Source: a virus
IMG/VR virus record: IMGVR_UViG_3300024255_001088
DNA length: 64,000 nucleotides
Reading direction: 5' to 3' (one strand)
The translations under genes were made by a program, and so were the position numbers. Shown piece by piece: positions 723 through 56,495 of the stretch; position 1 is the first letter of the stretch; every line of letters starts with the position of its first letter. The notes beneath the pieces are model-generated. The model was not told where the DNA came from, made no database searches, and saw only the letters and a program-made list of their open reading frames with translations.

Positions 723-930
723 GATAGTACATAAAGTGGAAGGATTTTCAGACCTAATTAGGGATGAATCCTCTCATGCCATTATCAATACTAACGAAGA
801 ACAGTATAGGTTGACAATGAAAAGAAGAGATTTTTTAAAAACTCAAAAGAATGAAATAAATACTCTTAAGAAAGAGGTAACAGAAATTAAAGACTTATTA
901 AAAGATATAGTAGAGAAATTACATGGCTAA
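709..930 (+). CDS. Small conserved coiled-coil protein (start may be TTG at 715)
   Basis: 'KVEG.SDLIRD..S.AIIN' followed by heptads. GAGGT at 701-705 fits a TTG start at 715. Confidence 0.6.
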   Translation: MLLRKIVHKVEGFSDLIRDESSHAIINTNEEQYRLTMKRRDFLKTQKNEINTLKKEVTEIKDLLKDIVEKLHG

Positions 931-3311: not shown

Positions 3312-4901
3312 ATGTCAGACGATATTTTTATAAAACATGATAAGAATGGTGGAACTTTTCAGCAACCCTTTTTAGCCAGAGTACCTGCAACCGGTCAACA
3401 ACCGAATATCGCACAAAGAATTTATCAGGTTACTACTCAAGGAACACAACCATTTACATATCAAAGTAGAACACCTACAAATGTTCAGACGCCTAGTAAT
3501 GCACAAAATCCAATAATTGCTCAAGGTATCGCACAAACAACTTATCAACATAGGTCGCCTGCTATATACACAAGTAGGGCGCCTTCAATATACAATATTC
3601 AAACACCTTCTACATATCAACATAGAAGTCCTTTGATATATCAACATAGGTCACCGTTTACTTATCAGTTAAATTATCAACATAGAGAACCTTCTACATA
3701 TCAACATAGAAGTCCTTTGATATATCGTACACCGACTCAGACTAGAACGCCTAGCATCTATACAAATAGACAACCTTTAACATATGAACATAGAAGTCCT
3801 TTTACATATGACCACAGAAGTCCTTTAACATATGACCACAGAAGTCCTTCTCGAACACCTTCTACATATCAAAATAGACAACCTTTAATATATGACCATA
3901 GGTCGCCTTATCAAAGTCCGTTTACTTATCAACATAGAAGTCCGTTGATATATGACCATAGGTCGCCTTCTACATACGATAATAGAGAACCTAGTATCTA
4001 TCAACATAGAAGTCCAGACACTTATCAGCATCAATCGCCGAGTACTTATCAGCATAGGTCACCGTCTCAGAGTCCGTTTACATACGACCATAGGTCACCA
4101 TTTACATATGACCATAGGTCACCGTCTCAGAGTCCGTTTACATACGACCATAGGTCACCATTTACATATGACCATAGGTCGCCTTATCAAAGTCCGTTTA
4201 CATACGACCATAGGTCACCATTTACATATGACCATAGGTCACCATTTACAACTCCAGTAATTGTTAATACACAAAGCTCAAGAAATGCACGAACACCGTT
4301 TATCTTTAGTGAATTACAACAGCAAAACATTGGTACTACGACTGCTCCATATGCTGAAGTTCATTGTGAGATGTCACTTATAGATTCTAGCGGTCGAGAA
4401 CCTTGGATTGTATTATATTGTGTTGAATCAAGTAATGATGTTAATGTATATGTTTATGCTTCAGCTGATGCATTTGGACTTCCTGATGCATATCTGAAAG
4501 AAACAAATACCGGCGGTACTCAAAATGGTCAGGATCAAAACATTGAAGAAAATAGTGATGTTCTTCTATACAAAATAGACGATGCTGGAACTAATTATTC
4601 TGTTGCTAGAAGTACCTCTACTCATGGTACCTTCAATGAGGGTACTCTGAGCGGAAACATTTCTGGAGGCACTGCAATAACTAGCACTTCTTGGACTTAT
4701 GGTACAACTAATGGTACTTTTACCAAGTGGAAATGTGATAATGCTAACTCTGGAGATGTTAAGGAGTACGAGACAACTAATACATTTACATTTACAAGTC
4801 CAGATGCTAATATGGGAACTCATACAATAACGCTAAAAGTGAATCTGTATTACGAAAACGAACAACCAGAAGAAGATGAAGAAGAAAATGACCAGGAGTA
4901 A
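3312..4901 (+). CDS. Zipper chain A1: xTYxHRSP repeat protein with a ~200-aa C-terminal domain
   Basis: Residues 20-329 are Pro-delimited repeats; residues 330-529 are non-repetitive with an acidic tail. Confidence 0.85.
   Translation: MSDDIFIKHDKNGGTFQQPFLARVPATGQQPNIAQRIYQVTTQGTQPFTYQSRTPTNVQTPSNAQNPIIAQGIAQTTYQHRSPAIYTSRAPSIYNIQTPSTYQHRSPLIYQHRSPFTYQLNYQHREPSTYQHRSPLIYRTPTQTRTPSIYTNRQPLTYEHRSPFTYDHRSPLTYDHRSPSRTPSTYQNRQPLIYDHRSPYQSPFTYQHRSPLIYDHRSPSTYDNREPSIYQHRSPDTYQHQSPSTYQHRSPSQSPFTYDHRSPFTYDHRSPSQSPFTYDHRSPFTYDHRSPYQSPFTYDHRSPFTYDHRSPFTTPVIVNTQSSRNARTPFIFSELQQQNIGTTTAPYAEVHCEMSLIDSSGREPWIVLYCVESSNDVNVYVYASADAFGLPDAYLKETNTGGTQNGQDQNIEENSDVLLYKIDDAGTNYSVARSTSTHGTFNEGTLSGNISGGTAITSTSWTYGTTNGTFTKWKCDNANSGDVKEYETTNTFTFTSPDANMGTHTITLKVNLYYENEQPEEDEEENDQE
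3369..4298 (+). repeat. Coding repeat array (HRSP type), 310 codons
   Basis: Units of even length (4-16 aa); near-perfect 60-bp tandem copies at ~4050-4250. Confidence 0.95.
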
Positions 4902-4907
4902 TGTGAT

Positions 4908-6002
4908 ATGCCAGTAGGACAACAACCATCCATATACCAACATCCTATTGCTACACAGGCGCAACAACCAGCGCAACAACCTAATATTAGAAACAAACAA
5001 CACCCTGTTATTAGAAACAAACAGGAAAGTAATCAAGAACCTAATATTAGAAACAAACAACACCCTGTTATTAGAAACAAACAGGAAAGTAATCAAAATC
5101 CTGTTATTAGAAACAAACAAGAACCTAATATTAGAAGCAAACAGGAAAGTAATCAAAATCCTGTTATTAGAAACAAACAACATCCGTTTATTAGAGACAG
5201 ACAAAATCCGGTTGAAAGAGCTCATCAAACTCCTTATACTGCAAATAAACAAAATCCTGTTATTAGAGACCAACAGGTGCCTAGTATAAGAAACGCCCAA
5301 CAGAATGCTCAAGAACCTAATATTAGAAGCGCTCAAAGTCCTTACATCGCAGATGCACAAGCGAATACGCAGAATCCTTTTATTAGAAATCAACAAGAAC
5401 CTAATATTAGAAGCAAACAGGAATCTGTTATAAGAAACAAACAGTCTGCTTATCAAGCGAGTAAACAAACTCCTTCTATAACAAGAACACCAGCGAGTCA
5501 ACAAGAACCTAATATTAGAAGCGCACAAACACCTTCTATTAGACAAGCGCTTAAAAATAAACAACAACCTAATATTAGAAGTCAACAAGAACCTAATATT
5601 AGAAATAAGAGAACACCTTCAGCACATAACGCACAATATCTTAATACTCACAATAGACAAGACCCTGTTATTAGAAGACAACCATTTACATATCCTTTCT
5701 CATATAGAAGTCCTTCTACTTACAGACATCCTACTATTGGTCAACAACCATATATTGCACAAGGTCAGGCTTCTTATAGTTTTCAACAAAACAGACAACA
5801 ACCATATGGATTCAGGTCTCCGTTTATATTTCAAGCAACAGAGAACTCTAATCGACCAATAACGCCAGTTGCAAAAGTGAAAGGAGTCTTTATAAAAGAT
5901 AGTGATGGTGTTGTAAAAGCTTCAACTAAAGTCTTTGTTAAGAAAGATAGTTCAACAGTTGAGAAAATTCATCAGGTACCTGCTTTGCCGTTTGACGAAT
6001 AG
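4908..6002 (+). CDS. Zipper chain B1: xIRxxQxP repeat protein
   Basis: Residues 8-317 are repeats mirroring A1; C-terminal 'VFIKDSDG...VFVKKD' hairpin motifs. Confidence 0.85.
   Translation: MPVGQQPSIYQHPIATQAQQPAQQPNIRNKQHPVIRNKQESNQEPNIRNKQHPVIRNKQESNQNPVIRNKQEPNIRSKQESNQNPVIRNKQHPFIRDRQNPVERAHQTPYTANKQNPVIRDQQVPSIRNAQQNAQEPNIRSAQSPYIADAQANTQNPFIRNQQEPNIRSKQESVIRNKQSAYQASKQTPSITRTPASQQEPNIRSAQTPSIRQALKNKQQPNIRSQQEPNIRNKRTPSAHNAQYLNTHNRQDPVIRRQPFTYPFSYRSPSTYRHPTIGQQPYIAQGQASYSFQQNRQQPYGFRSPFIFQATENSNRPITPVAKVKGVFIKDSDGVVKASTKVFVKKDSSTVEKIHQVPALPFDE
4929..5858 (+). repeat. Coding repeat array (EPNIR type), 310 codons
   Basis: Near-perfect 60-bp tandem copies at ~4975-5180. Confidence 0.95.
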
Positions 6003-8368: not shown

Positions 8369-8405
8369 TTAATATTCTTTAACACACTTTCAATAGGAGA
8401 TAGAA

Positions 8406-9230: not shown

Positions 9231-9241
9231 GGGGATAGAAA

Positions 9242-9652
9242 ATGGCTATAACAAGAAGTTTTAAACTCGCTGAATTCATCCGTCACATGTCTTATAACTC
9301 TAGTACAGATAGAATAGAAACAGGTAAAGAGATTCAAGACGAGAATACAACAACAGGTGGTATCACTAAAACTGCTACTACTGAATTCTCACTTGATACC
9401 TTTGCTCATGCTACCTATAGAGCTGCGAGATATATCGTGGCGATGTCAGAGGGAAGTAATTTCCACTCAACAGAGATAATGTTAGTACATGACGGTTCTA
9501 CCGTGACATTAACACAATACGGAACGCTTAAAGATACTAACTTAGCGACATTTGATGCAGACATTAATGGAGACAATGTTAGACTACTATGTACACCGGC
9601 GGGTACAAACTCAACGGTTATTAAGTTTAACAGAACTACAGTCGAAGCTTAA
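9242..9652 (+). CDS. Fibre adaptor/structural protein
   Basis: Same 'A(R/K)Y...EI...HDG...QYG' domain as its neighbours. Confidence 0.65.
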   Translation: MAITRSFKLAEFIRHMSYNSSTDRIETGKEIQDENTTTGGITKTATTEFSLDTFAHATYRAARYIVAMSEGSNFHSTEIMLVHDGSTVTLTQYGTLKDTNLATFDADINGDNVRLLCTPAGTNSTVIKFNRTTVEA

Positions 9653-9670
9653 ATTCAGTAATATATTATG

Positions 9671-9701
9671 AAAAGGGGGACTTTAGAGTCCCCTTTTTTT
9701 T
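9671..9701 (+). terminator. Rho-independent terminator
   Basis: GGGGAC-TTTAGA-GTCCCC followed by T8. Confidence 0.85.
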
Positions 9702-9730
9702 GTCGGTAGATAAATTACATAAATAACACC

Positions 9731-10549
9731 ATGGCATCGAAAGTAAAATTTTTCGCAGATTTAGGTGTACAGTCAAAACTAAACACTCAAGTAGATGGCG
9801 ATTTAACAGTTGCAGGTGACTTAACGGTTACAGGGACAACTTTAACAGTCAATTCTACAACGACATCTGTTGGCGACTCAATGTTTGAGTTCGCAAATCA
9901 AAATACTAGTTCAGACCTAATCGATATTGGTTTCTACGGAAACTACAACGATGGTTTATCAGATGGTGGTGCATCTGAGTACACAGGTCTATTCAGAGAT
10001 GCATCGGATTCTACATGGACATTATTTGATGGTTTAGAGGTAGAACCAGGAACTACAGTTAATACTGGTGGTTCGGGTTACGCACTTGCTGATTTAAAAC
10101 TTGGAGATTTAACTTCTTCAACACTAACAGCAGGTGGATTATTATATCCAACTTCAGATGGTTCTAACAACCAAGTCTTAATGACTAATGGTTCTGGTAC
10201 TTTATCTTTCCAAGATGCTGGTTCAGGACTTACTTCTGGTACAGTGACTACAACATCGACTACTATCACAAATTTAGATACAATGGCGATTGCAAGTTAT
10301 AGAGGTGCAAAGTATACTATAACAGTCTCAGACGCTACTGGTGGTGATTATGAGATAACAGAGGTTCATGTAATACACGATGGTACTAACGCAAGTATAA
10401 CGCAGTTTGGTACAGTCCTACAAGGTACATCTAGTGAGTTAGGAAGTTTCTCAGTAGATATCAACTCAGGCAATCTCAGATTGAGAGTCACTTCTGCCAG
10501 TACAAACTCCACAGTTTATAATTTTAAGCGAATAGACCACGCTGTATAA
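9731..10549 (+). CDS. Fibre adaptor/structural protein
   Basis: 'GDLTV.G' repeats plus C-terminal 'AKY...EV...HDG...QFG' domain. Confidence 0.65.
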   Translation: MASKVKFFADLGVQSKLNTQVDGDLTVAGDLTVTGTTLTVNSTTTSVGDSMFEFANQNTSSDLIDIGFYGNYNDGLSDGGASEYTGLFRDASDSTWTLFDGLEVEPGTTVNTGGSGYALADLKLGDLTSSTLTAGGLLYPTSDGSNNQVLMTNGSGTLSFQDAGSGLTSGTVTTTSTTITNLDTMAIASYRGAKYTITVSDATGGDYEITEVHVIHDGTNASITQFGTVLQGTSSELGSFSVDINSGNLRLRVTSASTNSTVYNFKRIDHAV

Positions 10550-10658
10550 AATAGTTATAACTAATTGAATTTTATTAGGGAAAATGAGGTCTTTAGAACG
10601 ACACCAATCTATAAATAATAGTATTAATTACTAATACTTTTACAAAAGGACATAAGAA

Positions 10659-10877
10659 ATGGCAACAACACAAACATTTGTAATCGAGTATGGGTTATCA
10701 GTAGGGTCATCTGAAGTCATAAATTCAAGTGGAAAAATCGTACCAGGTGCGTTATCCAATGTGGATTCAGACGACATAACAGAAGGCTCAACTAATCTGT
10801 ATATGACTACTTCAAGATTCAACTCTGCATTTGATACGAGACTATCTAACGCCACTATTGATGGAGGCACTATCTAA
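10659..10877 (+). CDS. Small fibre-associated protein ending IDGGTI
   Basis: 'FVIEYGLSVG' N-terminus, 'DDITEGSTNLY' module, SD AAGGA. Confidence 0.6.
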   Translation: MATTQTFVIEYGLSVGSSEVINSSGKIVPGALSNVDSDDITEGSTNLYMTTSRFNSAFDTRLSNATIDGGTI

Positions 10878-13354
10878 TGACAAGTAAAAATTTCATAATC
10901 AAAAATGGTCTAACAGTAGGAACTACTGAGGTCATAACATCTGCTGGTTTAATTACTGGCGCAGCTGTCAACGAGGCAGTTGACGATAGAGTTGATTCTC
11001 TATTAACTGCTGGAACAGGTATCTCATTAACATATGATGACACTGCTGGCACACTAACAATTAACGGACAACAAGGTGACATCACAGGTGTGAACGCTGG
11101 TGCTGGTTTAACTGGTACTGCAAGTTCAGGTGATGCAACACTAAACATTGGTGCTGGTACAGGTATTACTGTAAATGCAGACGATATTGCAGTCAACTTC
11201 AAAGATGAAGATGACATGTCTTCAAACTCAGCAACTCATGCCGCTACTCAACAATCAATTAAAGCATATGTTGACGCTCAAGTTGCAACAGTTCCGACTG
11301 GAGACATAACAAGTGTAGTCTCAGGAACTGGTCTAACAGGTGGCGGAACAAGTGGCGATGTCACTGTAAATGTTGTTGCAGGTAATGGTCTTATCGCAAA
11401 CGCAGACGATGTGACAATCGATACTTCGATAACAGCAGATTTAACTACTGCACAAACTTTAACTAACAAAACATTAACGACTCCAATTCTAAATGGAACA
11501 ATTTCGGGTACTGCTGTCTTAGACCAAGACAACATGTCTTCTAATAGTAATACTCATCTTGCAACACAACAATCAATCAAGGCATATGTAGACTCTTCAG
11601 TTGCAGGTAAAGATAATACAGACGAGATTACAGAAGGTTCAAGTAACCTATACTTCACAAATGAAAGAGTAGACGATAGAGTAGATGCTCTACTAACTTC
11701 TGGTGTCAATGTCGCTATGACATATGACGATGCAAATGGAAGTTTAGAGATTAGAGTACCTTATGAGAATATACAAGATACAGTTGGCGCTCAGATTGCA
11801 ACCAATGGTTCACATACAGGTCTTACTGCAACATATGATGATGCAGGTGACGGCGCTGTAGACCTTGCAGTATCAACATCACATGTTAGGGGTTTAATAT
11901 CTGCTGGTGGTGACTTATCATACAACAGTTCAACAGGTGTAATTAGTTTCACAAACGATGCTGGTGATATCTCTTCAGTAGTTGCTGGAACTGGTATGAC
12001 TGGTGGGGGAACTTCTGGTGATGTGACAGTCAATGTTATTGGGGGAGACGGTATTACTGCAAACGCAAATGATATCGCATTGTCTTCTTCAGTCGCTGGT
12101 GATGGTCTTTCATTCTCAAGTGGTGTTCTTGCAGTAGGGGTTGACGATAGTTCTATAGAAACAAGTTCAGATACATTACAAGTGAAAGCACTTGGTGTCA
12201 CAAATGCCATGTTGGCAGGTTCAATTGCTGAAGGCAAACTTGCAGGTGGTATTTCAAACGCAAAACTTGCTAACTCATCCATAACAATAGACGGAAGTGC
12301 TGTTTCATTGGGTGGTTCAATAACTACTACAAATACACAACTTACACAAGAACAAGTCGAAGACTTTGTTGGTGGTATGTTAGATGGTACCGAAACAGGT
12401 ATCTCTGTATCATACGATGATACAAATGGTAATCTTGACTTTGTTATTGGCGCTGACGACATTACTAACGATATGTTGGCAGGGTCAATTAATCAATCCA
12501 AACTTGCAGGTTCAATTGCAAACGCAAAACTTGCTAATAGTACGATAACAATTGATGGACAATCAGTTGCATTGGGTGGTTCAGTCACAACAACTAACAC
12601 TCAATTATCAACAGAGAATGTACAAGATATCGCTGGGGCGATGTTCTCAAGTAATACTGAAAGTGGTATTACTGCAACATATCAAGATGCAGATGGTACA
12701 ATCGATTTGAATGTTAATGACCCAACAATATCCTTGACAGGCGATGTGACAGGTTCTGCTACAATGACCAATTTAGGTAATGTTAGTATCTCTACTACAG
12801 TCGCTGCTAACTCAGTCGCACTTGGAACAGATACAACAGGTAACTATGTCGCAGGTGTAAGTGCAGGAACTGGTGTCTCAGTAAGTGGTTCTGGAGAAGG
12901 TGCAACATCAACAGTATCTATTGGACAGGCAGTTGGAACATCAAGTAATGTTCAATTTGGAAACTTAGTTCTCACAGGCGACTTAACAGTTAATGGTTCA
13001 ACAGTAACCAACTCTTCAACAAATACAACTATCGAAGACCAACTTATAGAGTTAGGGACAGGTAATAGTGGTTCTGCTTCAGGCGATGCAGGTTTTGTTA
13101 TCGAAAGAGGAAGTGATGCCAATGTATTTATTGGTTGGGATGAAAGTGCTGATGCAGTCACATTCGGAACAGGAACATTTACAGGTGCATCAACAGGTGA
13201 TTTAACGATTACACCAAGTGCAGTAAACACTGGCGCATTGACAATTACAAATGCAACAAACAGTGGTGGCACAGCGAGAAACATACATCAGTCAACATCA
13301 GCTCCAGGCGGAAGTGATGGCGCAGTTGGCGATTTATGGGTTCTTTACTCTTAA
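10877..13354 (+). CDS. Tail-fibre-like protein 2 (825 aa)
   Basis: 'GDITSV.AG.GLTGGG.SGDVT' and 'E.V.D.V...TY.D..G' repeats; C-terminal 'STSAPGGSDGAVGDLWV'. Confidence 0.75.
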   Translation: MTSKNFIIKNGLTVGTTEVITSAGLITGAAVNEAVDDRVDSLLTAGTGISLTYDDTAGTLTINGQQGDITGVNAGAGLTGTASSGDATLNIGAGTGITVNADDIAVNFKDEDDMSSNSATHAATQQSIKAYVDAQVATVPTGDITSVVSGTGLTGGGTSGDVTVNVVAGNGLIANADDVTIDTSITADLTTAQTLTNKTLTTPILNGTISGTAVLDQDNMSSNSNTHLATQQSIKAYVDSSVAGKDNTDEITEGSSNLYFTNERVDDRVDALLTSGVNVAMTYDDANGSLEIRVPYENIQDTVGAQIATNGSHTGLTATYDDAGDGAVDLAVSTSHVRGLISAGGDLSYNSSTGVISFTNDAGDISSVVAGTGMTGGGTSGDVTVNVIGGDGITANANDIALSSSVAGDGLSFSSGVLAVGVDDSSIETSSDTLQVKALGVTNAMLAGSIAEGKLAGGISNAKLANSSITIDGSAVSLGGSITTTNTQLTQEQVEDFVGGMLDGTETGISVSYDDTNGNLDFVIGADDITNDMLAGSINQSKLAGSIANAKLANSTITIDGQSVALGGSVTTTNTQLSTENVQDIAGAMFSSNTESGITATYQDADGTIDLNVNDPTISLTGDVTGSATMTNLGNVSISTTVAANSVALGTDTTGNYVAGVSAGTGVSVSGSGEGATSTVSIGQAVGTSSNVQFGNLVLTGDLTVNGSTVTNSSTNTTIEDQLIELGTGNSGSASGDAGFVIERGSDANVFIGWDESADAVTFGTGTFTGASTGDLTITPSAVNTGALTITNATNSGGTARNIHQSTSAPGGSDGAVGDLWVLYS

Positions 13355-13386: not shown

Positions 13387-15489
13387 ATGGCGACAGGCTC
13401 ACAAAAGGTAAAAACACCAACAGGTTGGAATAGTACCCGAGGTGCATGGGTAAAAACAGACTCAGGCACATGGAAAGCTGCTGACCAGATTTATGTAAAA
13501 ACACCTACAGGTTGGAACAATGCTTCTGGACAACAGAGTGTTCAACAACCTTACCCTTATATCGCAAACGCACAAGAACCCAATATAAGAAACAAACAGA
13601 ATCCTTATCCTTATATTGCAAACGCACAAGAACCTAATATAAGAAACAAACAGAATCCTTATCCTTATATTGCTAATGCACAAGAACCTAATATTAGAGA
13701 TAGAAGACAACCTGCGATTTATCAAAATCCAGTAAATGCACAAGAACCTAATATTAGAAATCAACAAGAACCTAATATTAGGTCACAACAAGAACCTAAT
13801 ATTAGAGATGCTAGACAACCTGGTACATATCAACATAGGTCACCTAGTACATATAGAGACCCTCGTTCATATCAGAATCCTTCTACATATAATCATAGAA
13901 GTCCGTTGACATATCAACATAGAAGTCCGTTGACATATCAACATAGGTCACCATTTATATATCAACATAGGTCACCTTCTACATATAGTAATAGACAACC
14001 TAGTACATATCAACATAGGTCGCCTTATAGAAGTCCGTTTATCTATCAACATAGAAGTCCGTTGACATATGACCACAGGTCTCCTTTAATATATCGTAAT
14101 CCGTTTACTTATAATCACAGGTCTCCTTTAACATATGACCATAGGTCACCTTATCAAAGTCCATTTACTTACGACCATAGAAGTCCGTTGACATATCAAC
14201 ATAGGTCACCTTATAGAAGTCCGTTCACTTATCAACATAGAAGTCCGTTGACTTATCAACATCAGTCACCGAGTATTTACCAGAATCCAAGTACCTATCA
14301 GAACAGACAACCTAGTACTTATCAGCATCAGTCGCCAAGTATTTACCAGAATCCTAGTACTTACGACAATAGACAACCTAGTAGTTATCAGCATCAGTCG
14401 CCAAGTATTTACCAGAATCCGAGTACTTACAACAATAGACAACCTGGTACATATGACCATAGGTCACCTTATAGAAGTCCGTTCACTTATCAACATAGGT
14501 CACCATTTACATATGACCATAGGTCGCCGTTTACATATCGTAATCCGTTTACTTATAACCATAGGTCGCCTACTACATATAATCACAGGTCACCATATAC
14601 ATATGACCATAGGTCGCCTAGTACATACAATCACAGGTCACCTAGTACATATCAGGCAAGACAACCTAACGCTGCTAGAAACCCATTTAGTGCAAGACAA
14701 CCGTTCACTTATCAGGCAAGAGAACCTAATACATATAATCATAGGTCGCCTAGTACATACCAAGCAAGACAACCGAATAGTGCTAGACAACCATTTAGTG
14801 CGAGACAACCGTTCACTTATCAGGCAAGACAACCAAACTCTGCTAGAAACCCATTTAGTGGAAGAAATCCTTTCACTTATCAGGCAAGGTCGCCTTCGAT
14901 TGCAAACAATAGGTCTCCTGCAACTTATTCATTCAGAATGCCGTTTACCTTTGGTGGTGGAGGAGGAGGCGGAGGTTGCTTCGCTCCAGGTTCAATGATA
15001 TGGTTAGGCGATGGTTCACATGCACCTATCGAGTCATGTGTTGTTGGTCAATGGGTCATGTCTTGGAACGAAAGTACTAAATTACTTGAACCTAAGAGAA
15101 TACAACAAATTAATCCTCAGCCAATCAGTTCTATATGGGATATAACATTCTCAGATGGTAGAATTCTACAGATGACTGATACTCACCCATTGATGTTACC
15201 AAATGGTGAATGGGGTGCATTTGATATTGAGAAATCAGTAAAAGAACATTGGTGGATGGAAGATATAGAAACACATGAACTTAAAGTTGGAGATAGTATA
15301 TTCAGTATGTTAGATGGCATAATGTTTGATAGACAAGATGAAATGGGACTAGAGATAGTATCAATAGAAGAACACTCAGAAATGGAAGTTTATAACTTAA
15401 CTGGTATTGAAGATAACTCGAACTTCTTTGTTAATGGCATGTTAGCACATAACTTTAACAATCTACCTATTCCTGTAGGACAAAAATAA
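13387..15489 (+). CDS. Zipper chain A2: repeat protein with Gly8 linker and C-terminal Hint domain
   Basis: Three 'VKT..(.)G.W'-type motifs, 464-aa repeat array, G8, then a Hint domain. Confidence 0.85.
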   Translation: MATGSQKVKTPTGWNSTRGAWVKTDSGTWKAADQIYVKTPTGWNNASGQQSVQQPYPYIANAQEPNIRNKQNPYPYIANAQEPNIRNKQNPYPYIANAQEPNIRDRRQPAIYQNPVNAQEPNIRNQQEPNIRSQQEPNIRDARQPGTYQHRSPSTYRDPRSYQNPSTYNHRSPLTYQHRSPLTYQHRSPFIYQHRSPSTYSNRQPSTYQHRSPYRSPFIYQHRSPLTYDHRSPLIYRNPFTYNHRSPLTYDHRSPYQSPFTYDHRSPLTYQHRSPYRSPFTYQHRSPLTYQHQSPSIYQNPSTYQNRQPSTYQHQSPSIYQNPSTYDNRQPSSYQHQSPSIYQNPSTYNNRQPGTYDHRSPYRSPFTYQHRSPFTYDHRSPFTYRNPFTYNHRSPTTYNHRSPYTYDHRSPSTYNHRSPSTYQARQPNAARNPFSARQPFTYQAREPNTYNHRSPSTYQARQPNSARQPFSARQPFTYQARQPNSARNPFSGRNPFTYQARSPSIANNRSPATYSFRMPFTFGGGGGGGGCFAPGSMIWLGDGSHAPIESCVVGQWVMSWNESTKLLEPKRIQQINPQPISSIWDITFSDGRILQMTDTHPLMLPNGEWGAFDIEKSVKEHWWMEDIETHELKVGDSIFSMLDGIMFDRQDEMGLEIVSIEEHSEMEVYNLTGIEDNSNFFVNGMLAHNFNNLPIPVGQK
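13552..14943 (+). repeat. Coding repeat array (short EPNIR part, then long HRSP part), 464 codons
   Basis: 63 units of 4/6/8/10 aa. Confidence 0.95.
14977..15453 (+). other. Hint (intein-like/BIL) autoprocessing domain
   Basis: Block A CFAPGS, block B TDTHP, block F VYNL, block G NFFVNGMLAHN; +1 residue is Phe; no endonuclease. Confidence 0.9.
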
Positions 15490-15529
15490 TGAAGATGATA
15501 ATTAAATTAAGAGTAGGGAGTAAAATCTA

Positions 15530-16996
15530 ATGCCACAGCAACCTCTAATTGGACTTGCTCAATCGCCAAGTACTTCTAATGTGCAAACTCCGTATATTGC
15601 TAATGGCCAGCAACCTTATACTGGTCAACAACCATATACATATCAGTCGCCATATATTGCATCTGGTCAGACTCCTTATACTGGTCAGACTCCTTATACT
15701 TACCAGAGTCCTTATATTGCGAATAATCAACAACCCAATATTAGAAGTTATCAAAGTCCGTATATTGCGAATGGTCAGACTCCTTATACTGGTCAACAAC
15801 CTTATACTTTCCAGAGTCCATACATTGCGAATAATCAAGAACCTAATATAAGGAACAATCAGGAACCCAATATTAGAAGCATACAAGAACCTAATATTAG
15901 AAACCAACAAGAACCTAATATTAGAGATGCTCAGTCACCTAGTAATGCTCAGCAACCTACAATTAAGAACAAACAAGAACCTAATATTCGTTCAGCGCAA
16001 CAGTCAGCACAAGAACCAAATATCAGAAACTTTCAGACTCCTTACATTGCTAATGCACAAGGGGCTAGTGCAGCTCAAGAACCTAATATCAGAAATGCAC
16101 AAACACCTTATATTGCAAACAGACAAAACACTGCAAATGCACAAGAACCTAATATTAGAAACAGACAAACACCTTATATTGCAAACAGACAAACCACTTC
16201 AAATGCACAAGAACCAAACATAAGGTCACAACAAGAACCTAATATTCGTTCAGCGCAAGCGTCAGCACAAGAACCAAACATAAGGTCACAACAAGAACCT
16301 AATATTAGAAACAAACAGCAGAGTGCTCAACAACCTACTATTAAGAACCAACAGGAACCTAATATTAGAGATGCTCAGTCACCTAGTAATGCTCAGCAAC
16401 CTAATATTAGAAGTCAACAAGAACCTAATATTCGTTCAGGTCAAACGGTAACGCAAGAACCTAATATTAGAGACAGACAAACACCTTATATTGCTAATGC
16501 ACAAAATCCGTTTATTAGAAATGCTCAAGAACCAAACATAAGGTCACAACAAGAACCTAATATTAGAGCTCAACAAGAACCTAATATTAGAAACAGACAA
16601 ACAACAGCGAGCTATCAGAATCCTGTAAATGCTCAGAATCCGTTTATAAGAAATAATCAGACTCCATTTACATATGACCATAGAAGTCCGTTGACATATG
16701 ACCACAGGTCTCCTTTAACATATGACCATAGAAGTCCGTTTACTTACAGAAATCCTGCAAATAGTCAGACACCTCTTACATATCAACATCAGAGTCCTTC
16801 TACATATGCTAGACAAGGTCAAACACCAACGACTTATCAACATAGAAGTCCTTCTACATATGCTAGACAAGGTCAGACACCAACGACTTATCAACATAGG
16901 TCACCTAGTACATATGCTAGACAAGGTCAAACACCTGTTATCCGTTGGGATGGTTCATTGTCACAAACATGGCCAGGAACACCTGTTAATTCTTAA
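15530..16996 (+). CDS. Zipper chain B2: repeat protein (long EPNIR/YIAN part, then short HRSP part)
   Basis: 5 aa + 464-aa array + 19 aa; SD GGGAG. Confidence 0.85.
   Translation: MPQQPLIGLAQSPSTSNVQTPYIANGQQPYTGQQPYTYQSPYIASGQTPYTGQTPYTYQSPYIANNQQPNIRSYQSPYIANGQTPYTGQQPYTFQSPYIANNQEPNIRNNQEPNIRSIQEPNIRNQQEPNIRDAQSPSNAQQPTIKNKQEPNIRSAQQSAQEPNIRNFQTPYIANAQGASAAQEPNIRNAQTPYIANRQNTANAQEPNIRNRQTPYIANRQTTSNAQEPNIRSQQEPNIRSAQASAQEPNIRSQQEPNIRNKQQSAQQPTIKNQQEPNIRDAQSPSNAQQPNIRSQQEPNIRSGQTVTQEPNIRDRQTPYIANAQNPFIRNAQEPNIRSQQEPNIRAQQEPNIRNRQTTASYQNPVNAQNPFIRNNQTPFTYDHRSPLTYDHRSPLTYDHRSPFTYRNPANSQTPLTYQHQSPSTYARQGQTPTTYQHRSPSTYARQGQTPTTYQHRSPSTYARQGQTPVIRWDGSLSQTWPGTPVNS
15545..16936 (+). repeat. Coding repeat array mirroring 13552-14943, 464 codons
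   Basis: 63 units whose lengths are the reverse of those in A2. Confidence 0.95.
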
Positions 16997-17033: not shown

Positions 17034-18581
17034 ATGAGCGTAAAATCAGACTCACTCGAGCACACAAAGGAACTTCTCAAAGATTGGGATCCAACAGATA
17101 AGAACACACATGTTCAGTTGGGTTCTTTTGATGTATCAAAAGATTATAAAGAAACAGAAGCATATAAATCTTTAAAATGGGTGACAGCGAACAAAACAGG
17201 AAAATTAAAACAGGTCAAATGGGGTGATATGACTAAGTTAATCAAGGAACAAAAGTTTCTTGGTTGGAACAAACTACAATCTCATTCATGGGCATATCAT
17301 TACTTTCTTTCTAAAGGATACACTGCACCACCCGAAAATCCAAAACCAGGAATTGCAGGTATGGATTTTAAAAATTCAAATGATGAATATCAAAAGATAG
17401 AAGAATTCACAGATACTAAGTTAAGCGAACAACAAGATTCTAGTCTTAATGCTGTATATTATCATGGTGCAAAGGCACATTGGTTAGTCGATAGTATCAG
17501 AAAAGAAGGTCTATGGAATGCAATTCAAGGCACTGTATCTACAGCAGGTATGAACTCCAGAGATGAACGAATGTATCAGTTATCTATACATCCAGGTTCT
17601 GTTCGTTCAGGTGTTTTCGAAACTATGAATGACCCAGACTTAGATTTATGGATATGGGATAACCACGATGCTATACCTCTTCCAGAAACACCTATAGATG
17701 AAATGATTGACGAAATGAAGTCGCAACTTGTAGAAAGAAATGCAGACCACTACTCAATGTCGTTTTCATTCACTCGTGGATATTTAGAAATACATAGTGA
17801 CTTATTGAAGATGAACTTCAGAGGAGATGTGACAGACTTCAATAAAAAAGTAAATAAACTTTCTGCTGGCAAACCCTTGACAATCTATGTCGGATATGAT
17901 AGTAGACACAAAGACATTGCAGAACTAAGTGCTAAATGTCTTAAGAGTAGTATATTATTTGGAGCAGGTCATGGTGATGTACATGATATATTAGGAGATT
18001 GGACTCCTGAGATAAAGTTTCTTGACATATCAAAGATTCCAGAGTATAATAGAGAGTATGCAGCTCAATCAACAGAGTTCACATATAGTAGATTCTTAAT
18101 TCCTTACTTAGAAAACTATGAAGGATTTAGTATTTTTATTGATGATGATATACTATTCAATGAAAGTATCTTACCAATGTTCTACTATTTAGATTTAGAT
18201 GATGCAGTTGCATGTGTTCAGTATGATTTTGATACTTATGCTGAAACAAAATTTAACGGTGAAAAGAATGTATCTTATCCTAAAAAACTTTGGTCATCAT
18301 TAATGATATTTAATAATGGTCACGAAGACTGTAAGAAACTTACGCCAGAAGTTATCAATACTGAAAGTGGTAAATATCTACATCAATTTGAATGGACAGA
18401 TAAGATATCAGAAATACCAGAATGGTATGTTATAACTGAGGGGCATGATACGCAAGAAGAAAAGTGGCGTGCTTGTGCTATACATTATACTAGAGGTGGT
18501 CCTTGGATTGAAGGCATGGATACTTCTGAAATAGAACACCTAAATATGTATGAAAGATTTAAAAATAAACATCAAAACTAG
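17034..18581 (+). CDS. Two-domain protein with C-terminal GT-A glycosyltransferase
   Basis: 'IYVGYDSR', 'STEFTYSRFLIPYL', DxD ('IDDD'), 'YPKKLWSSLMIFN', 'HYTRGGPW'. N-terminal domain not identified. Confidence 0.75.
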   Translation: MSVKSDSLEHTKELLKDWDPTDKNTHVQLGSFDVSKDYKETEAYKSLKWVTANKTGKLKQVKWGDMTKLIKEQKFLGWNKLQSHSWAYHYFLSKGYTAPPENPKPGIAGMDFKNSNDEYQKIEEFTDTKLSEQQDSSLNAVYYHGAKAHWLVDSIRKEGLWNAIQGTVSTAGMNSRDERMYQLSIHPGSVRSGVFETMNDPDLDLWIWDNHDAIPLPETPIDEMIDEMKSQLVERNADHYSMSFSFTRGYLEIHSDLLKMNFRGDVTDFNKKVNKLSAGKPLTIYVGYDSRHKDIAELSAKCLKSSILFGAGHGDVHDILGDWTPEIKFLDISKIPEYNREYAAQSTEFTYSRFLIPYLENYEGFSIFIDDDILFNESILPMFYYLDLDDAVACVQYDFDTYAETKFNGEKNVSYPKKLWSSLMIFNNGHEDCKKLTPEVINTESGKYLHQFEWTDKISEIPEWYVITEGHDTQEEKWRACAIHYTRGGPWIEGMDTSEIEHLNMYERFKNKHQN

Positions 18582-18595
18582 ATTATGGAGTTATT

Positions 18596-19147
18596 ATGAA
18601 TATGTTAATTTATTGTGAGAATGGTCATCTTACTATTAGAAAACCAAATGGCCTAGAATGGAGACATGATAATGTCGATAAACCTAATTTAGGGTTTGAG
18701 TATGATGTTCTTATCTATGATGACATCGAAGTCAAGATTATGGAATGGAAAGAAAATGTTCAGTTTGATGAACAAGAAAAAATTTCATTAACAGATGTTG
18801 AGTTAGATGCAATCGAAAACTACATTCAAAATTCTGTTCCACCTTCCGATGTGACATTATCCAATCAATACAGTCAACAAATTAATGATGTTGGTAAAGA
18901 TTACTTAGACCAACAAATTCAAACTTATGGATTTGAAAGTCTGGTAGATGTTATGGCTGCAGGTAGAGATGGTTCAAATCATCCTTTAAGGTCAGATGCA
19001 AGAAGAGTATTAGAATACTATGATGTGATGTGGAACATCTATGTAAATATTATGAATGATGTAAAATCAACTAGAGAAGATTTACTTCCAGATGTAGAAG
19101 AATATATTAATAGATTCCCACCGCCACAAAAAGCATTAATAGAGTAG
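18596..19147 (+). CDS. Hypothetical protein, possibly tail-fibre-assembly-like
   Basis: C-terminal helical pattern resembling fibre chaperones; lies after the fibre genes. Confidence 0.4.
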   Translation: MNMLIYCENGHLTIRKPNGLEWRHDNVDKPNLGFEYDVLIYDDIEVKIMEWKENVQFDEQEKISLTDVELDAIENYIQNSVPPSDVTLSNQYSQQINDVGKDYLDQQIQTYGFESLVDVMAAGRDGSNHPLRSDARRVLEYYDVMWNIYVNIMNDVKSTREDLLPDVEEYINRFPPPQKALIE

Positions 19148-19150
19148 TTT

Positions 19151-19885
19151 ATGTCCCTAGAAATAGTCAAGGTAGATAAACCTTTTACTATTAAAGACTT
19201 TCCTTTAGGAAATAAAGTCTATGTAATAGACAATTACTTAGAAACTTCTATACATCGATGGATTCATCGTAAAACTTCTGAGGGTCCTAGGTGGTCTAAA
19301 CAAAATCAAGTAAACGCACAACATCCCACAGGTTTACCTCATCATCAACTTTGGGGTGCATCATTCTTTAAAACAGATGATTATGGTAATCCAAAAATGG
19401 AATATGGGGAAACAAGCGACACTGTAGAACATGCTAAATGGTTGAACAGAAGAATATGTACAGACTTTGGTTTTAAATGGAAAAGATTTCAGTATATGGG
19501 AACCAATTCTCAAACTCATGGTCAACATGGTACAACTCATTGTGATTGTGATGAACAAGATGAATGGAACCTATCATTTCTATATTACTATAATAAATTC
19601 TGGAATCCTGCATGGGGTGGAGATTTAAGATTTTATGATAAAGGTGTTTATCAAGCCGGTTTAGATGGAAGAGAAGAACACATAGAAAAACATTCTATAG
19701 GAAGTATAGAGTTTAAACCAAACAGATTGTTAATGTTTGATGGAAGAATACCACATGGTGCAGATGCACCAACAGAACGAGCTCGATATGCAGATAGATG
19801 TTCTATCGTACTTAGGGGTGACGAGATAGAACTAGTAGATAAGGAAGAATTATATAATGCCAACGATAGATTTCACTACATTTAA
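19151..19885 (+). CDS. 2OG-Fe(II) oxygenase (prolyl-hydroxylase-like)
   Basis: HxD (HCD), 'W.P.WGG.L.F', 'PNRLLMFDG.IPH', distal Arg. Confidence 0.85.
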   Translation: MSLEIVKVDKPFTIKDFPLGNKVYVIDNYLETSIHRWIHRKTSEGPRWSKQNQVNAQHPTGLPHHQLWGASFFKTDDYGNPKMEYGETSDTVEHAKWLNRRICTDFGFKWKRFQYMGTNSQTHGQHGTTHCDCDEQDEWNLSFLYYYNKFWNPAWGGDLRFYDKGVYQAGLDGREEHIEKHSIGSIEFKPNRLLMFDGRIPHGADAPTERARYADRCSIVLRGDEIELVDKEELYNANDRFHYI

Positions 19886-20693
19886 CGAAGAGAGTCTTAG
19901 AGACTGGAAACCAGTTCTTGCTAAATCGTTAAGTCCTGATTGGTGGAAAAAAATGAAAGTCTTTCAACACGATAGAGGACAAAGAATACAGACTATTCGT
20001 GCTTGTCCGGCAATGGACGATTGGTTAAAATCTGGTTGGTACATTCTTGCAAATAGAGATATGGAAGTTGTTTTTGATAACGGCAAAACATATACTCAAG
20101 AATTTGGTAAAAAGGTGGCACAATCTCAAGCATCTCCTTCTCATCCTGCAGCTCAGTTTGCACACTCATTCAGTTATTTAGGAGAAGAAGGTCCAATTAA
20201 AGATGCATTTAAAATGAGAAATGCTTGGAATATAATAACGCCAAAGGGTTATTCTTGTTTCTATTTAGACCCCTTTTTATTTCAAAACAATCATTTTGCA
20301 ACATGGCAAGGTGTTATAGATACAGATGACTTTAATATCAATCAAGACAATTCACAAATTATTTTCTATCCTAAAGTTAGTCATTCGTTTGTTATACCAA
20401 AAGGAACTCCCCTAGTTCAAGTTATACCTTTTAAAAGAGAAGAATGGGTATCGACTTATCAGTTAAAAGACACTGCTGGATGGCACAAAGATAGAACCGA
20501 AGATAGAGTACAAGAACTTCCTAGCATGGACCAAGTAAACAGAGAGAAGTACGATAAACTATTAAAAGAGAAACCCAACAATATGGGTGCATATAGAAGT
20601 GAAGGACATTGGAAACAAAAAGGTAAGAATTTCAAAGAAATGGAACCTCCACCAGAGTGTCCATTTCATAAAGGAGAAATAGATGGCGATTAA
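19857..20693 (+). CDS. Conserved phage hypothetical protein
   Basis: 'TIRACPAM.D', 'W.I.TPKGYS', 'GVIDTD', 'GTPLVQVIPFKR' motifs, commonly found beside oxygenases in T4-like phages. Confidence 0.6.
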   Translation: MPTIDFTTFNEESLRDWKPVLAKSLSPDWWKKMKVFQHDRGQRIQTIRACPAMDDWLKSGWYILANRDMEVVFDNGKTYTQEFGKKVAQSQASPSHPAAQFAHSFSYLGEEGPIKDAFKMRNAWNIITPKGYSCFYLDPFLFQNNHFATWQGVIDTDDFNINQDNSQIIFYPKVSHSFVIPKGTPLVQVIPFKREEWVSTYQLKDTAGWHKDRTEDRVQELPSMDQVNREKYDKLLKEKPNNMGAYRSEGHWKQKGKNFKEMEPPPECPFHKGEIDGD

Positions 20694-21393
20694 ATTATTT
20701 AGTCCAGCAGTAATTTGTATTAGAGAATGGTTATATAATCCAGAAGACAAAGTAGAAGGATTGACGCCAGAGTATTTTCAAATGTTGAAGGATGAAATGG
20801 ATGCTATGAGAACTAGAGACCGTGAAGGTAGAAGCAGGTCTAATAAAGGTCTTGGTTGGCAATCAAACGATGGTATCGATAACAATCCCATATTCAATAA
20901 GTTGATGAGACAAATTAAAAGAACAGTGTCGGAAGAGATTATGGGTTATTGTGGATTCGAAAAAGGAACTGCTCAATGTGTTATGCATAACTCATGGGGA
21001 AACATAAACTATCCAGGTGGATATAATGCACCACATTTACATAATGGTTGTACTTATTCTGGTGCATGTTATATTAGGGCAGACGGAGACGAGGGAGATA
21101 TTAAGTTTATAGAAACAACTAAACACTATGTTGGAATGGCTCTATCTTCACCTAGAATGGAAGAATCTTGGGGTTGGCAACCAAAAACTGGAGACATACT
21201 TTTATTTCCTAGTGGCACCATGCATCTGGTTGAACCAAACACGACAGATAAAGATAGATATAGTATATCGTTTAATATAGAGATTTCTCAACCCAATGGA
21301 GAAATTCTTATTGAAGAGAATGGCGAAGAATGGCATAAAGAAAACATGGGTTTAGTATTCAGAACAGATAGATTTGGTAAGTTGATACAGTAG
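20683..21393 (+). CDS. Putative 2OG-Fe(II) oxygenase (TIGR02466-like)
   Basis: 'W.NIN..G.YN.PHLH...SG..Y', 'LFPS...H.V', 'R.SISFN'. Confidence 0.8.
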   Translation: MAIKLFSPAVICIREWLYNPEDKVEGLTPEYFQMLKDEMDAMRTRDREGRSRSNKGLGWQSNDGIDNNPIFNKLMRQIKRTVSEEIMGYCGFEKGTAQCVMHNSWGNINYPGGYNAPHLHNGCTYSGACYIRADGDEGDIKFIETTKHYVGMALSSPRMEESWGWQPKTGDILLFPSGTMHLVEPNTTDKDRYSISFNIEISQPNGEILIEENGEEWHKENMGLVFRTDRFGKLIQ

Positions 21394-52476: not shown

Positions 52477-52511
52477 AGCCCCCATGAAAGTCTATTTGTA
52501 TAAATAACTGT

Positions 52512-56329: not shown

Positions 56330-56339
56330 GGAGAGATTT

Positions 56340-56495
56340 ATGAGCATAAATATTGACTTTACTAAACTAAGACAATGGCATGAAAACCTAACATGGGAAG
56401 TTGCCGACTATTTTGGTTTAGATGAATATGAAATGTTATGGGTGTCATACACCGAGGGATTAATTTTAGGATTATTATTATGGTGGATTTTTTAA
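56340..56495 (+). CDS. Small membrane protein
   Basis: SD GGAG before ATG 56340; hydrophobic C-terminus. Confidence 0.5.
   Translation: MSINIDFTKLRQWHENLTWEVADYFGLDEYEMLWVSYTEGLILGLLLWWIF

What the first reader, a model, noticed from the sequence alone, without database searches (positions are those of the whole stretch)
13387..16996. Peptide-level 'reverse-complement' gene pair 2: 63 of 63 repeat units mirror over 464 residues
Seen: A2 (aa 56-519) read C-to-N and B2 (aa 6-469) read N-to-C give an identical aperiodic unit-length series: 8,8,8,6,6,8,6,6,8,8,8,6,6,8,8,8,8,8,6,8,8,4,8,8,6,8,8,6,8,8,6,8,8,4,8,8,4,8,8,6,8,8,4,8,8,8,8,8,8,6,6,8,8,8,8,6,6,8,10,8,10,8,10. B2 is almost nothing but this counter-strand (5+464+19 aa). 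Eight B2 boundaries lack Pro, but the Pro-to-Pro distances (12 or 14) equal the partner sums. Inference: two separate genes encode the two strands of one long antiparallel zipper, at most about 150 nm extended. This differs from the usual homotrimeric phage fibre. I know of no description of this architecture, but could not search.
Basis: partly seen in the sequence, partly recalled or inferred. Interest (0 to 1): 0.96.

Follow-up and report, generated by a model that had tools for sequence, protein, structure and literature searches.

The report
Mirror-coded two-protein phage fibre
Two neighbouring late genes of an uncultured marine T4-like (pelagimyophage-like) phage encode proline-punctuated repeat proteins, and one read backwards matches the other unit for unit in length and in complementary type; this rule is kept in every related gene pair tested, so the two chains most likely zip together head-to-tail into a long thin fibre of a design I could not find described.

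Summary
Read C-to-N, the A2 (700 aa) proline spacing from P55 to P519 equals the B2 (488 aa) spacing from P5 to P469. All 56 B2 prolines fall on A2 prolines, and A2 residue i faces B2 residue 524-i. In 200,000 shuffles of unit order the best score was 38 of 56.

The match goes beyond length. Among equal-length 8:8 units, TYxH(R/Q)SP always faces PNIR-type (30 of 30). TYxNRQP and TYxARQP always face PYIA-type (12 of 12).

I tested the mirror in relatives from viromes. All 26 length-distinct pairs, with mirrored regions of 277-527 aa, keep it (z 5.9-9.1). Facing units are of opposite type in 95% of cases. The cognate partner is the best match for 18 of 21. Unit lengths are even in 1261 of 1262 cases, and the strongest covariation links same-parity positions. 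Both facts fit an antiparallel beta ribbon.

No DNA inverted repeat or antisense relation explains the pattern. Physical binding is inferred, not shown: the one complex prediction gave no verdict.

The pair sits in the tail-fibre "host recognition cluster". Its A-N/B-C end is conserved. Its tip (A C-terminus) varies and here carries a BIL-type Hint domain.

I found no description in the literature. Other agents of this scan reported the same phenomenon on other genomes.

The parts
10610..10617 (+). T4-type late-promoter-like box TATAAATA ahead of the fibre gene that precedes the pair
   Evidence: all 7 matches in the window lie on the + strand, but the count is not enriched over shuffles. Co-transcription of f825, A2 and B2 is inferred, not shown.
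10877..13354 (+). f825, an 825-aa fibre-like protein directly upstream of A2. It is the first gene of a conserved three-gene module. Its N-terminal ~135 aa and C-terminal ~130 aa are conserved and its middle is variable.
   Evidence: tblastn of window proteins against 20 related loci shows it is always directly upstream of the A2-type gene. No Pfam family was found.
13387..13548 (+). A2 N-terminal conserved end (aa 1-54) with three VKTxxGW-like motifs. In the mirror it faces the B2 C-terminal end.
   Evidence: many invariant columns across 16 homologues. Third-codon-position changes dominate.
13549..14943 (+). A2 mirrored repeat array, P55-P519, 63 units of 4, 6, 8 or 10 aa. PNIR/PYIAN-type units run to aa 145 and TYxHRSP-type units follow.
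14953..14976 (+). Gly8 linker (aa 523-530) ending at the Gly|Cys-Phe junction
   Evidence: GCF is invariant in 9 homologues.
14977..15453 (+). Hint/BIL-type autoprocessing domain (aa 531-689: Cys1, block-B His-Pro, C-terminal His-Asn) at the tip of the mirrored hairpin
15454..15489 (+). 11-aa tail after His-Asn (+1 residue Phe, ends in Lys) plus the stop codon
   Evidence: 30 of 30 distinct tails in relatives carry a Lys near the end, and the +1 residue is never Cys or Thr.
15530..15541 (+). B2 start (aa 1-4), preceded by a GGGAG Shine-Dalgarno-like sequence 40 nt after the A2 stop
15542..16936 (+). B2 mirrored repeat array, P5-P469. PYIAN/PNIR-type units run to aa 379 and TYxHRSP-type units follow. 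It is the unit-by-unit complement of the A2 array read backwards.
16937..16996 (+). B2 C-terminal conserved end (aa 470-488, Trp-rich) plus the stop codon. It faces the A2 N-terminal end.
3312..4901 (+). A1, the first chain of a second, independent pair in the same window. It follows the 792-aa fibre gene (923-3301) and carries a ~200-aa C-terminal domain of unknown fold instead of Hint.
   Evidence: the mirror gives 31 coincidences against 22 for the next-best offset. z = 6.9.
4908..6002 (+). B1, the partner of A1. Its mirror is specific to A1 and does not hold with A2.

Best explanation
A2 and B2 are two chains of one elongated virion fibre element. They pair antiparallel and in a fixed register over 464 residues each, with A2 residue i opposite B2 residue 524-i. 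Each proline-delimited unit of one chain faces a unit of the same length and the complementary type in the other. The aperiodic order of 4/6/8/10-residue units acts as an address. It permits only one register and only the cognate partner, so the two pairs in the same phage (A1/B1 and A2/B2) cannot cross-pair or slip.

The geometry I think most likely is a two-stranded antiparallel beta ribbon. The prolines would sit opposite each other at non-hydrogen-bonded, outward-facing positions. Whether one ribbon stands alone or several pack together is open.

The conserved end (A N-terminus plus B C-terminus) is the proximal attachment, probably to the conserved C-terminal part of the upstream fibre protein f825. 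The variable A C-terminus is the distal tip. In A2 the tip carries a BIL-type Hint domain that removes itself at the Gly8|Cys junction.

Shown: the mirror, the type code, their conservation, pair specificity, even unit lengths, the Hint fold, and the position in the tail-fibre cluster. Inferred: physical pairing, beta geometry, orientation on the virion, and autoprocessing.
For: - Exact mirror: 56 of 56 prolines coincide, and none of 200,000 unit shuffles exceeded 38.
- Type code beyond length: among 8:8 units, H(R/Q)S units face P.I(R/K) in 30 of 30 cases and NRQP/ARQP units face PYIA in 12 of 12 (Fisher p = 9e-11). Each A2 sub-type has one B2 sub-type.
- Conservation with different series: 26 length-distinct pairs have z 5.9-9.1, and none of 2000 shuffles reached the observed value.
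- Opposite types: 1094 of 1152 facing units are of opposite type, against 50% expected.
- Pair specificity: the cognate A is the best mirror partner for 18 of 21 B chains, and the exceptions are near-identical relatives. Cross pairs within the window fail.
- Beta periodicity: unit lengths are even in 1261 of 1262 cases.
- Localised covariation: PNIR-unit position 5 covaries with the residue after Pro in the TY-unit (Gln:Leu, Ala:Phe; Z about 15 after controlling for neighbour unit type). An equally variable facing position shows none. In 6:6 units the top pairs are (3,5), (1,1) and (5,5), all of even parity.
- Termini: the mirror runs into the conserved ends, while the A C-terminus beyond it varies between none, Hint and unknown domains of 150-226 aa.
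- Real genes: third-codon-position changes dominate in both.
- Context: the pair lies in a conserved fibre-gene module between a VrlC-like gene and the neck gene. This is the host recognition cluster of pelagimyophages (PMC7029224).
Against: There is no physical evidence of binding and no usable structure model of the paired region. Some of the covariation could come from shared amplification history of super-repeats rather than from contact. The polar composition, with few hydrophobic residues, makes a free two-stranded ribbon 150 nm long surprising, and higher-order packing may be needed. A few metagenomic pairs are out of register by whole 44-aa blocks (L028, L054) or by 1 aa (L013). These are either assembly errors or evidence that mismatches are tolerated. 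Virion incorporation is untested.
Confidence: 0.7

Rival explanations
1. The pairing and register are the same, but the assembly is a three-fold needle. Three A chains run out and three B chains run back, forming a six-stranded rod like the distal needle of the T4 long tail fibre. Here the outgoing and returning strands are separate gene products.
For: Phage fibres are typically trimers (established knowledge). In the T4 gp37 needle, iron is coordinated by histidines of the three subunits at seven sites along its length (PMC6957217). That each gp37 chain runs to the tip and back is from my own knowledge and was not verified here. The TY-type units carry an invariant Tyr-x-His on one face, which could line a core or bind metal. 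The aromatic face of the ribbon needs something to pack against.
Against: There is no His-x-His motif. Pro opposite Pro on both edges of the ribbon every 4-10 residues would break edge-to-edge hydrogen bonding between ribbons (inference). Nothing here tests stoichiometry.
Confidence: 0.25
2. B is an assembly chaperone or register template for A (or the reverse). It pairs in the mirrored register only during folding and is absent from the mature virion, as some T4 fibre chaperones are.
For: Phage fibre genes are often followed by dedicated chaperones (established knowledge). The comparative data require pairing but not permanence.
Against: A residue-for-residue counterpart of equal length with conserved termini is a costly design for a transient factor. 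In the mirror, the conserved B C-terminal end faces the conserved A N-terminal end, which suggests a joint structural end.
Confidence: 0.1
3. A and B do not touch each other. Each lies along a third aperiodic scaffold, for example the upstream trimeric fibre f825, in opposite directions, and that scaffold imposes the common unit series.
For: The three-gene module f825-A2-B2 (and f792-A1-B1) is conserved.
Against: Pairs whose mirrored regions range from 277 to 527 aa all keep their mirror, and I did not test whether f825 length tracks that range. A shared scaffold does not explain why facing units are of opposite type in 95% of cases. It also does not explain position-specific covariation between A and B.
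Confidence: 0.05
4. The mirror is a relic of a DNA event. B arose as an inverted copy of A that is read on the antisense strand, so unit lengths mirror without any structural meaning.
For: Reverse-complemented A DNA aligned to B at the mirrored register has 33-39% identity at offset +6 nt, against a background of about 25%, in pairs rich in PNIR/HRSP units.
Against: No inverted repeat is detectable. The +6 peak is absent or not the top offset in pairs with other unit compositions (L047, L049, L051, L062, L068), as expected for a chance resemblance of two periodic consensus units. An ancient event cannot explain why relatives with different series each stay mirrored.
Confidence: 0.03

Closest known systems
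Distal needle of the phage T4 long tail fibre (gp37; PDB 2XGF recalled from my own knowledge; needle with seven iron sites per PMC6957217)
   Same: Both are thin, non-helical distal fibre elements of a T4-like myovirus. In both, polypeptide runs out to a tip and back, so outgoing and returning segments lie antiparallel. Both sit in the tail-fibre module.
   Different: In gp37 both strands belong to one chain of a homotrimer and are held by His-x-His iron sites over roughly 15 nm (my own knowledge). Here the outgoing and returning strands are separate gene products. There is no His-x-His motif. The region is up to 464-527 residues long. Register is set by an aperiodic code of complementary units.
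Stalk of streptococcal antigen I/II (SpaP/SspB): Ala-rich repeats paired with Pro-rich repeats
   Same: Both are long thin stalks formed by antiparallel pairing of two different repeat types, with a functional domain at the fold-back tip.
   Different: Antigen I/II is a single chain with an alpha helix wound with a polyproline-II helix and strictly periodic repeats. Here there are two chains, units of even length that fit beta periodicity, an aperiodic order, and both unit types present in both chains.
Antiparallel coiled-coil arms of SMC/Rad50/MukB proteins, and the antiparallel alpha/beta spectrin heterodimer (from my own knowledge)
   Same: Irregularities in one strand must be mirrored in the returning strand to keep register over tens of nanometres. 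Spectrin does this with two gene products.
   Different: Those are alpha-helical. A proline every 4-10 residues excludes that here.
BIL2 domain of the Tetrahymena BUBL1 locus (PDB 6Y75/6TMM), bacterial intein-like domains and Hedgehog HhC. This comparison applies only to the A2 C-terminal domain.
   Same: BIL2 is the best sequence-profile match (E 2e-10) and the best fold match (TM 0.77). A2 has Gly-Cys-Phe at the N-terminal junction, a block-B His and a terminal His-Asn, and it lacks a Cys/Ser/Thr nucleophile at +1. A conserved Lys lies downstream. BIL2 forms a Lys isopeptide with the upstream domain's C-terminus (PMC8616854).
   Different: The upstream partner is a 520-aa repeat chain rather than a ubiquitin-like domain. 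The downstream part is only 1-13 residues. Activity is untested.

Membership tests
Hint superfamily (intein / BIL / Hedgehog autoprocessing domain): A2 aa 531-689 | Nucleophilic Cys (or Ser) as first residue, directly after the upstream chain | tested here: met
   Cys531 follows Gly8. G-C-F is invariant in 9 homologues.
Hint superfamily (intein / BIL / Hedgehog autoprocessing domain): A2 aa 531-689 | Block-B His (TxxH) and C-terminal His-Asn | tested here: met
   Invariant H-P at alignment positions 92-93 (local sequence TDTHP in A2) and invariant H-N at 180-181.
Hint superfamily (intein / BIL / Hedgehog autoprocessing domain): A2 aa 531-689 | Significant profile match and Hint fold | tested here: met
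   The profile of 9 homologues against PDB gives E 2e-10 to BIL2 6y75/6tmm, plus BIL 2lwy and DnaB inteins. Pfam Intein_splicing scores 35.8 bits, equal to the cut-off, on the cut domain, and 9 of 9 homologues hit Hint families. The AF2 model core has pLDDT about 80. The Foldseek top hit is 6y75 with TM 0.77, followed by inteins and hedgehog.
Canonical splicing intein | Cys/Ser/Thr nucleophile at the +1 position of a real C-extein | tested here: not met
   The +1 residue is Phe in A2. Across 30 distinct tails it is G, F, M, I, L, K or R, and Ser once. Tails are only 1-13 aa long. A2 is therefore BIL/Hedgehog-like, not a splicing intein.
T4 gp37-type needle | His-x-His iron-binding motifs; outgoing and returning strand in one chain of a homotrimer | tested here: not met
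   Neither array printed contains His-x-His. The two strands are separate ORFs 40 nt apart in different frames. Trimer state is not testable here.
Collagen-like triple helix | Gly at every third residue | tested here: not met
   The arrays are Gly-poor, and unit lengths are 4/6/8/10, not multiples of 3.
Alpha-helical coiled coil (SMC-arm or spectrin-like antiparallel pairing) | Heptad periodicity and helix-compatible sequence | tested here: not met
   A proline occurs every 4-10 residues throughout both arrays.
Two-stranded antiparallel beta ribbon (structural class, not a sequence family) | Two-residue periodicity; residues unable to donate a backbone H-bond confined to one parity; cross-strand neighbours covary | tested here: inconclusive
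   In favour: 1261 of 1262 unit lengths are even, Pro faces Pro, and the top covarying positions have even parity. No structure model or spectroscopy is available.
Known phage or Pfam families for the repeat arrays themselves | Any curated family match | tested here: not met
   Pfam finds nothing above cut-off for B2, A1 or B1. All 244 A-type relatives are unnamed. There is no match in 50,697 phage records.

The most novel reading that the evidence does not exclude
These phages use a natural, sequence-addressable protein duplex. Two polypeptides recognise each other through a unit-level pairing code: TY/His-type units opposite PNIR/PYIAN-type units of equal length. The aperiodic order of these units specifies both partner and register over hundreds of residues. 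Two orthogonal duplexes (A1/B1 and A2/B2) coexist in one virion. Length evolves through compensated insertions in two separate genes. This would be a protein analogue of strand complementarity and a new principle of fibre construction.
Probability: 0.6. Interest if true: 0.95.

Novelty: categorically new. Interest (0 to 1): 0.9.

Why it matters
If the two chains really zip together, this is a fibre architecture with no described precedent that I could find: a hetero two-chain, antiparallel, non-helical rod. Its register and partner choice would be written in an aperiodic code of complementary peptide units.

It would explain how very long thin fibres avoid slipping out of register. It would show compensatory length evolution across two genes in nature. 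It would also give protein designers a beta-type counterpart to orthogonal coiled-coil pairs.

It bears on host recognition as well. The phages belong to a group that infects the most abundant marine heterotrophs (SAR11/OM43-type hosts). Their tail fibres could not be identified by homology in the published survey (PMC7029224).

Tried and rejected
- Complex prediction: A2 aa 1-200 with B2 aa 324-488, each with a 16-row alignment, scored 0.00. The result is no verdict and counts neither for nor against binding.
- Single-sequence AF2 of the Hint region: pLDDT was 33 and the model was useless. It was repeated with an alignment.
- DNA-level cause: no inverted repeats were found. The reverse-complement identity scan shows only a unit-type-specific 33-39% peak at +6 nt. 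I rejected this as the origin of the mirror.
- Searches of cultured phage records: blastn and tblastn with the whole region, B2 and the A2 N-terminus found no match. The fibre regions of Pelagibacter phage HTVC008M and Methylophilales phage Melnitz contain no such pair.
- Natural single-chain (fused) hairpin versions among 120 A-type relatives: none is clearly self-mirrored.
- Mapping individual compensated indels between close relatives with a sequence matcher: gap placement in the repeat arrays is ambiguous, so I rely only on each pair being in register despite different unit counts.
- Literature: the motif strings and several keyword sets returned nothing relevant.
- The window's own assembly is not held. 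The nearest record, G001, has just the same two pairs.
Full report
**The observation.** The region holds two ORFs on the + strand: A2 (13387-15489, 700 aa) and B2 (15530-16996, 488 aa). I recomputed the proline positions. With each PYP counted as one unit, A2 from P55 to P519 has 63 units: 41 of 8 aa, 15 of 6, 4 of 4 and 3 of 10, summing to 464 aa.

B2 from P5 to P469 gives the same series read forwards. Eight boundaries lack Pro, and the distances there (12 or 14) equal the partner sums. In the gapless mirrored alignment every one of the 56 B2 prolines lies on an A2 proline, so A2 residue i faces B2 residue 524-i. Other alignments score much lower:

| Alignment | Coinciding prolines |
|---|---|
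| A2 reversed vs B2, best offset | 56 |
| Next-best mirrored offset | 44 |
| Best parallel offset | 32 |
| A2 or B2 against itself | 34 or 30 |
| Non-cognate chains of the window's other pair | 18-20 |

Shuffling the order of the A2 units 200,000 times gave a mean of 17 and a maximum of 38.

**More than length.** Facing units are of complementary type. In pair 2 each A2 sub-type has one B2 sub-type:
- TYxH(R/Q)SP faces PNIR-type.
- TYxNRQP and TYxARQP face PYIA-type.
- The 6-residue (F/S)(T/I)Y(R/Q)NP faces xxNAQE.
- The 4-residue Y(R/Q)SP faces SAQE.
- The 10-residue PYPYIANAQE faces xTYARQGQT.

Among units of equal length (8:8) the association is perfect, 30/0 and 0/12 (Fisher p = 9e-11). 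Both chains contain both flavours. The switch of flavour in A2 at aa 145 mirrors the switch in B2 at aa 379.

**Relatives.** A scan of IMG/VR with B2 returned 72 loci, and nearly all carry an adjacent pair of repeat ORFs.
- In 26 length-distinct pairs, with mirrored regions of 277-527 aa, the mirrored proline match is 5.9-9.1 sd above unit-order shuffles. None of 2000 shuffles reached the observed value.
- Facing units are of opposite type in 1094 of 1152 cases, against 50% expected.
- The cognate A is the best mirror partner of a given B in 18 of 21 cases. The exceptions are near-identical relatives.
- The second pair in this window, A1 (3312-4901) and B1 (4908-6002), obeys the same rule with a different series.
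- In several relatives the flavours alternate many times along each chain, and the partner always carries the complement.
- Nine independent metagenomic contigs carry pair 2 at about 96% identity. Eight call the same 700/488-aa lengths; in L008 the A gene is split into two ORFs. This argues against an assembly artefact.
- A few pairs are out of register by one 44-aa super-repeat or two (L028, L054), or by 1 aa (L013). I cannot tell whether these are assembly collapse or real.

**Is a DNA mechanism behind it?** Both genes are on the same strand, and no inverted repeat exists. Reverse-complemented A DNA against B at the mirrored register shows 33-39% identity at offset +6 nt in PNIR/HRSP-rich pairs. 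This peak is not seen in pairs built from other units. That is what a chance resemblance of two periodic consensus units would give. It is not what an inverted duplication read on the antisense strand would give. An ancient DNA event also could not keep relatives with different series mirrored. Both ORFs evolve under purifying selection in the annotated frames: differences at codon positions 1/2/3 are, for example, 8/7/43.

**What the anatomy says about structure.**
- Unit lengths are even in 1261 of 1262 cases. This fits the two-residue periodicity of beta strands. It does not fit polyproline-II or collagen (period 3) or a coiled coil (period 7).
- In an antiparallel pair, directly opposite residues are either both hydrogen-bonded to each other or both pointing outwards. 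Pro opposite Pro at a constant parity is what one expects if all prolines occupy the outward, non-bonded positions (established sheet geometry; the application here is inference).
- Covariation is sharply localised. Position 5 of the PNIR unit covaries with the residue after Pro of the TY unit (Gln with Leu, Ala with Phe or Tyr; Z about 15 after restricting to identical neighbouring unit types). The equally variable facing "x" positions do not covary.
- In 6:6 units the top three pairs are (3,5), (1,1) and (5,5), all of the same parity and hence on the same face.
- Part of this signal could be inherited from amplified super-repeats, so I treat it as supportive and not decisive.
- A fully extended 464-residue strand is about 150 nm long. 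This is an upper bound.

**Ends.** The mirror runs into conserved termini. The A N-terminus (three VKTxxGW-like motifs) faces the Trp-rich B C-terminus. Beyond the mirror the A C-terminus is variable. It is about 10 residues in L019 and L029, a Hint domain in W2, L033, L051 and L060, and an unrelated domain of 150-226 aa in L047, L068, L048 and A1. A conserved end with a variable end is the usual arrangement of proximal attachment and distal tip in phage fibres (inference).

**The Hint domain.** A2 aa 531-689 follows a Gly8 linker.
- A profile of nine homologues hits the BIL2 domain of the Tetrahymena BUBL1 locus (E 2e-10), a bacterial intein-like domain and mini-inteins.
- All nine homologues hit Hint-type Pfam families.
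- An AF2 model built with the alignment has a core pLDDT of about 80. It matches 6y75 with TM 0.77, then inteins and hedgehog.
- Gly-Cys-Phe, the block-B His and the terminal His-Asn are invariant.
- The +1 residue is never Cys or Thr, so this is not a splicing intein.
- All 30 distinct short tails carry a Lys near their end. BIL2 is reported to join the upstream C-terminus to a Lys by an isopeptide bond (PMC8616854).

The domain therefore most likely removes itself from the fibre tip, possibly with Lys-mediated transfer. This is untested.

**Context.** The neck protein downstream is about 50% identical to those of Pelagibacter phages HTVC008M and Mosig and of Methylophilales phage Melnitz. 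The gene order is conserved in about 20 related loci:

VrlC-like (~2050 aa) - f792 - A1 - B1 - p110 - f544 - f274 - p136 - f272 - f825 - A2 - B2 - GT8-like - p183 - 2OG-Fe(II) oxygenases - neck gene

This is the "host recognition cluster" described for pelagimyophages. Its authors could not identify tail fibres by homology and do not mention these pairs (PMC7029224). f825 has conserved N- and C-terminal parts and a variable middle, so it may be the proximal rod to which the conserved A/B end attaches (inference). A TATAAATA box lies at 10610.

**Distribution.** The A type has 244 relatives and the B type about 159 clusters at 50% identity. All come from metagenomes and all are unnamed. None was found in 50,697 phage records. 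The cultured relatives HTVC008M and Melnitz lack the pair in their fibre regions.

**Known or new.** The motif strings and keyword searches returned nothing relevant. The nearest analogues are the T4 gp37 needle, the antigen I/II stalk, and the antiparallel arms of SMC proteins or the spectrin heterodimer. They share the out-and-back or mirrored-register principle, but each differs in several defining features (see the membership tests). Earlier notes of this scan report the same phenomenon on other genomes, with the same conclusion. I tested the claims independently on this window.

**Verdict.** I give 0.7 that A2 and B2 pair physically, antiparallel and in the mirrored register. The beta-ribbon geometry is likely, and the stoichiometry is open. 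The one complex prediction allowed gave no verdict. Binding experiments are the decisive next step.

Noticed in passing
window 15454-15486 (A2 tail) and the C-termini of Hint-bearing relatives (P-series proteins): Every one of 30 distinct short tails after the Hint His-Asn contains a Lys within the last few residues, while the +1 residue is never Cys or Thr. The closest solved relative, BIL2, forms a Lys isopeptide with the upstream C-terminus (PMC8616854). This suggests Lys-mediated self-excision or transfer at the fibre tip.
   Followed up: partly
window 17034-21393: Directly downstream of B2, and syntenic with it in about 20 loci, lie a GT8-like glycosyltransferase (515 aa), a 183-aa protein, two ORFs with 2OG-Fe(II) oxygenase Pfam hits (19151-19885 and 20683-21393) and a 278-aa ORF without a Pfam hit between them. 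Next to proline-, Ser- and Thr-rich fibre chains this raises the untested idea of hydroxylation or glycosylation of the fibre. Glycosyltransferases in this cluster are noted in PMC7029224.
   Followed up: partly
L028 and L054 (versus L019), L013 (versus the window): Some natural or assembled variants are out of register: B is shorter by 44 aa (L028), A is shorter by 88 aa (L054), and B has a 1-aa shift (L013). The 44-aa step equals one super-repeat. This is either short-read assembly collapse or tolerated loop-outs that could be intermediates of compensated length change.
   Followed up: partly
window 13387-16996 and related loci: Reverse-complemented A DNA aligned to B in the mirrored register has 33-39% identity at offset +6 nt in PNIR/HRSP-rich pairs, against a background of about 25%. 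I judged this a chance resemblance of two periodic consensus units, but the reason for the peak was not dissected codon by codon.
   Followed up: partly
window 13387-13548 and 5850-6002: The A2 N-terminus holds three VKTxxGW-like motifs. The B1 C-terminus holds VKGVFxxDxxG-like repeats, and the pair-1-type A N-terminus differs (MSxExF...). The two pair families therefore have different conserved ends, which may be distinct docking sites.
   Followed up: no
window 52499-59780: An earlier first-stage note reports a curli-type (CsgF/CsgG) operon behind a TATAAATA box at 52499. The box is present. A curli/type VIII secretion cluster is a published feature of pelagimyophages (PMC7029224). I did not examine the genes.
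   Followed up: no
window 6734-10549: Between the two pairs lie four further fibre-like ORFs (544, 274, 136 and 272 aa). The 544- and 274-aa ORFs share the N-terminal motif MATVIQxKRS, and all four are conserved in order in relatives. The phage therefore carries an unusually rich set of fibre genes.
   Followed up: no
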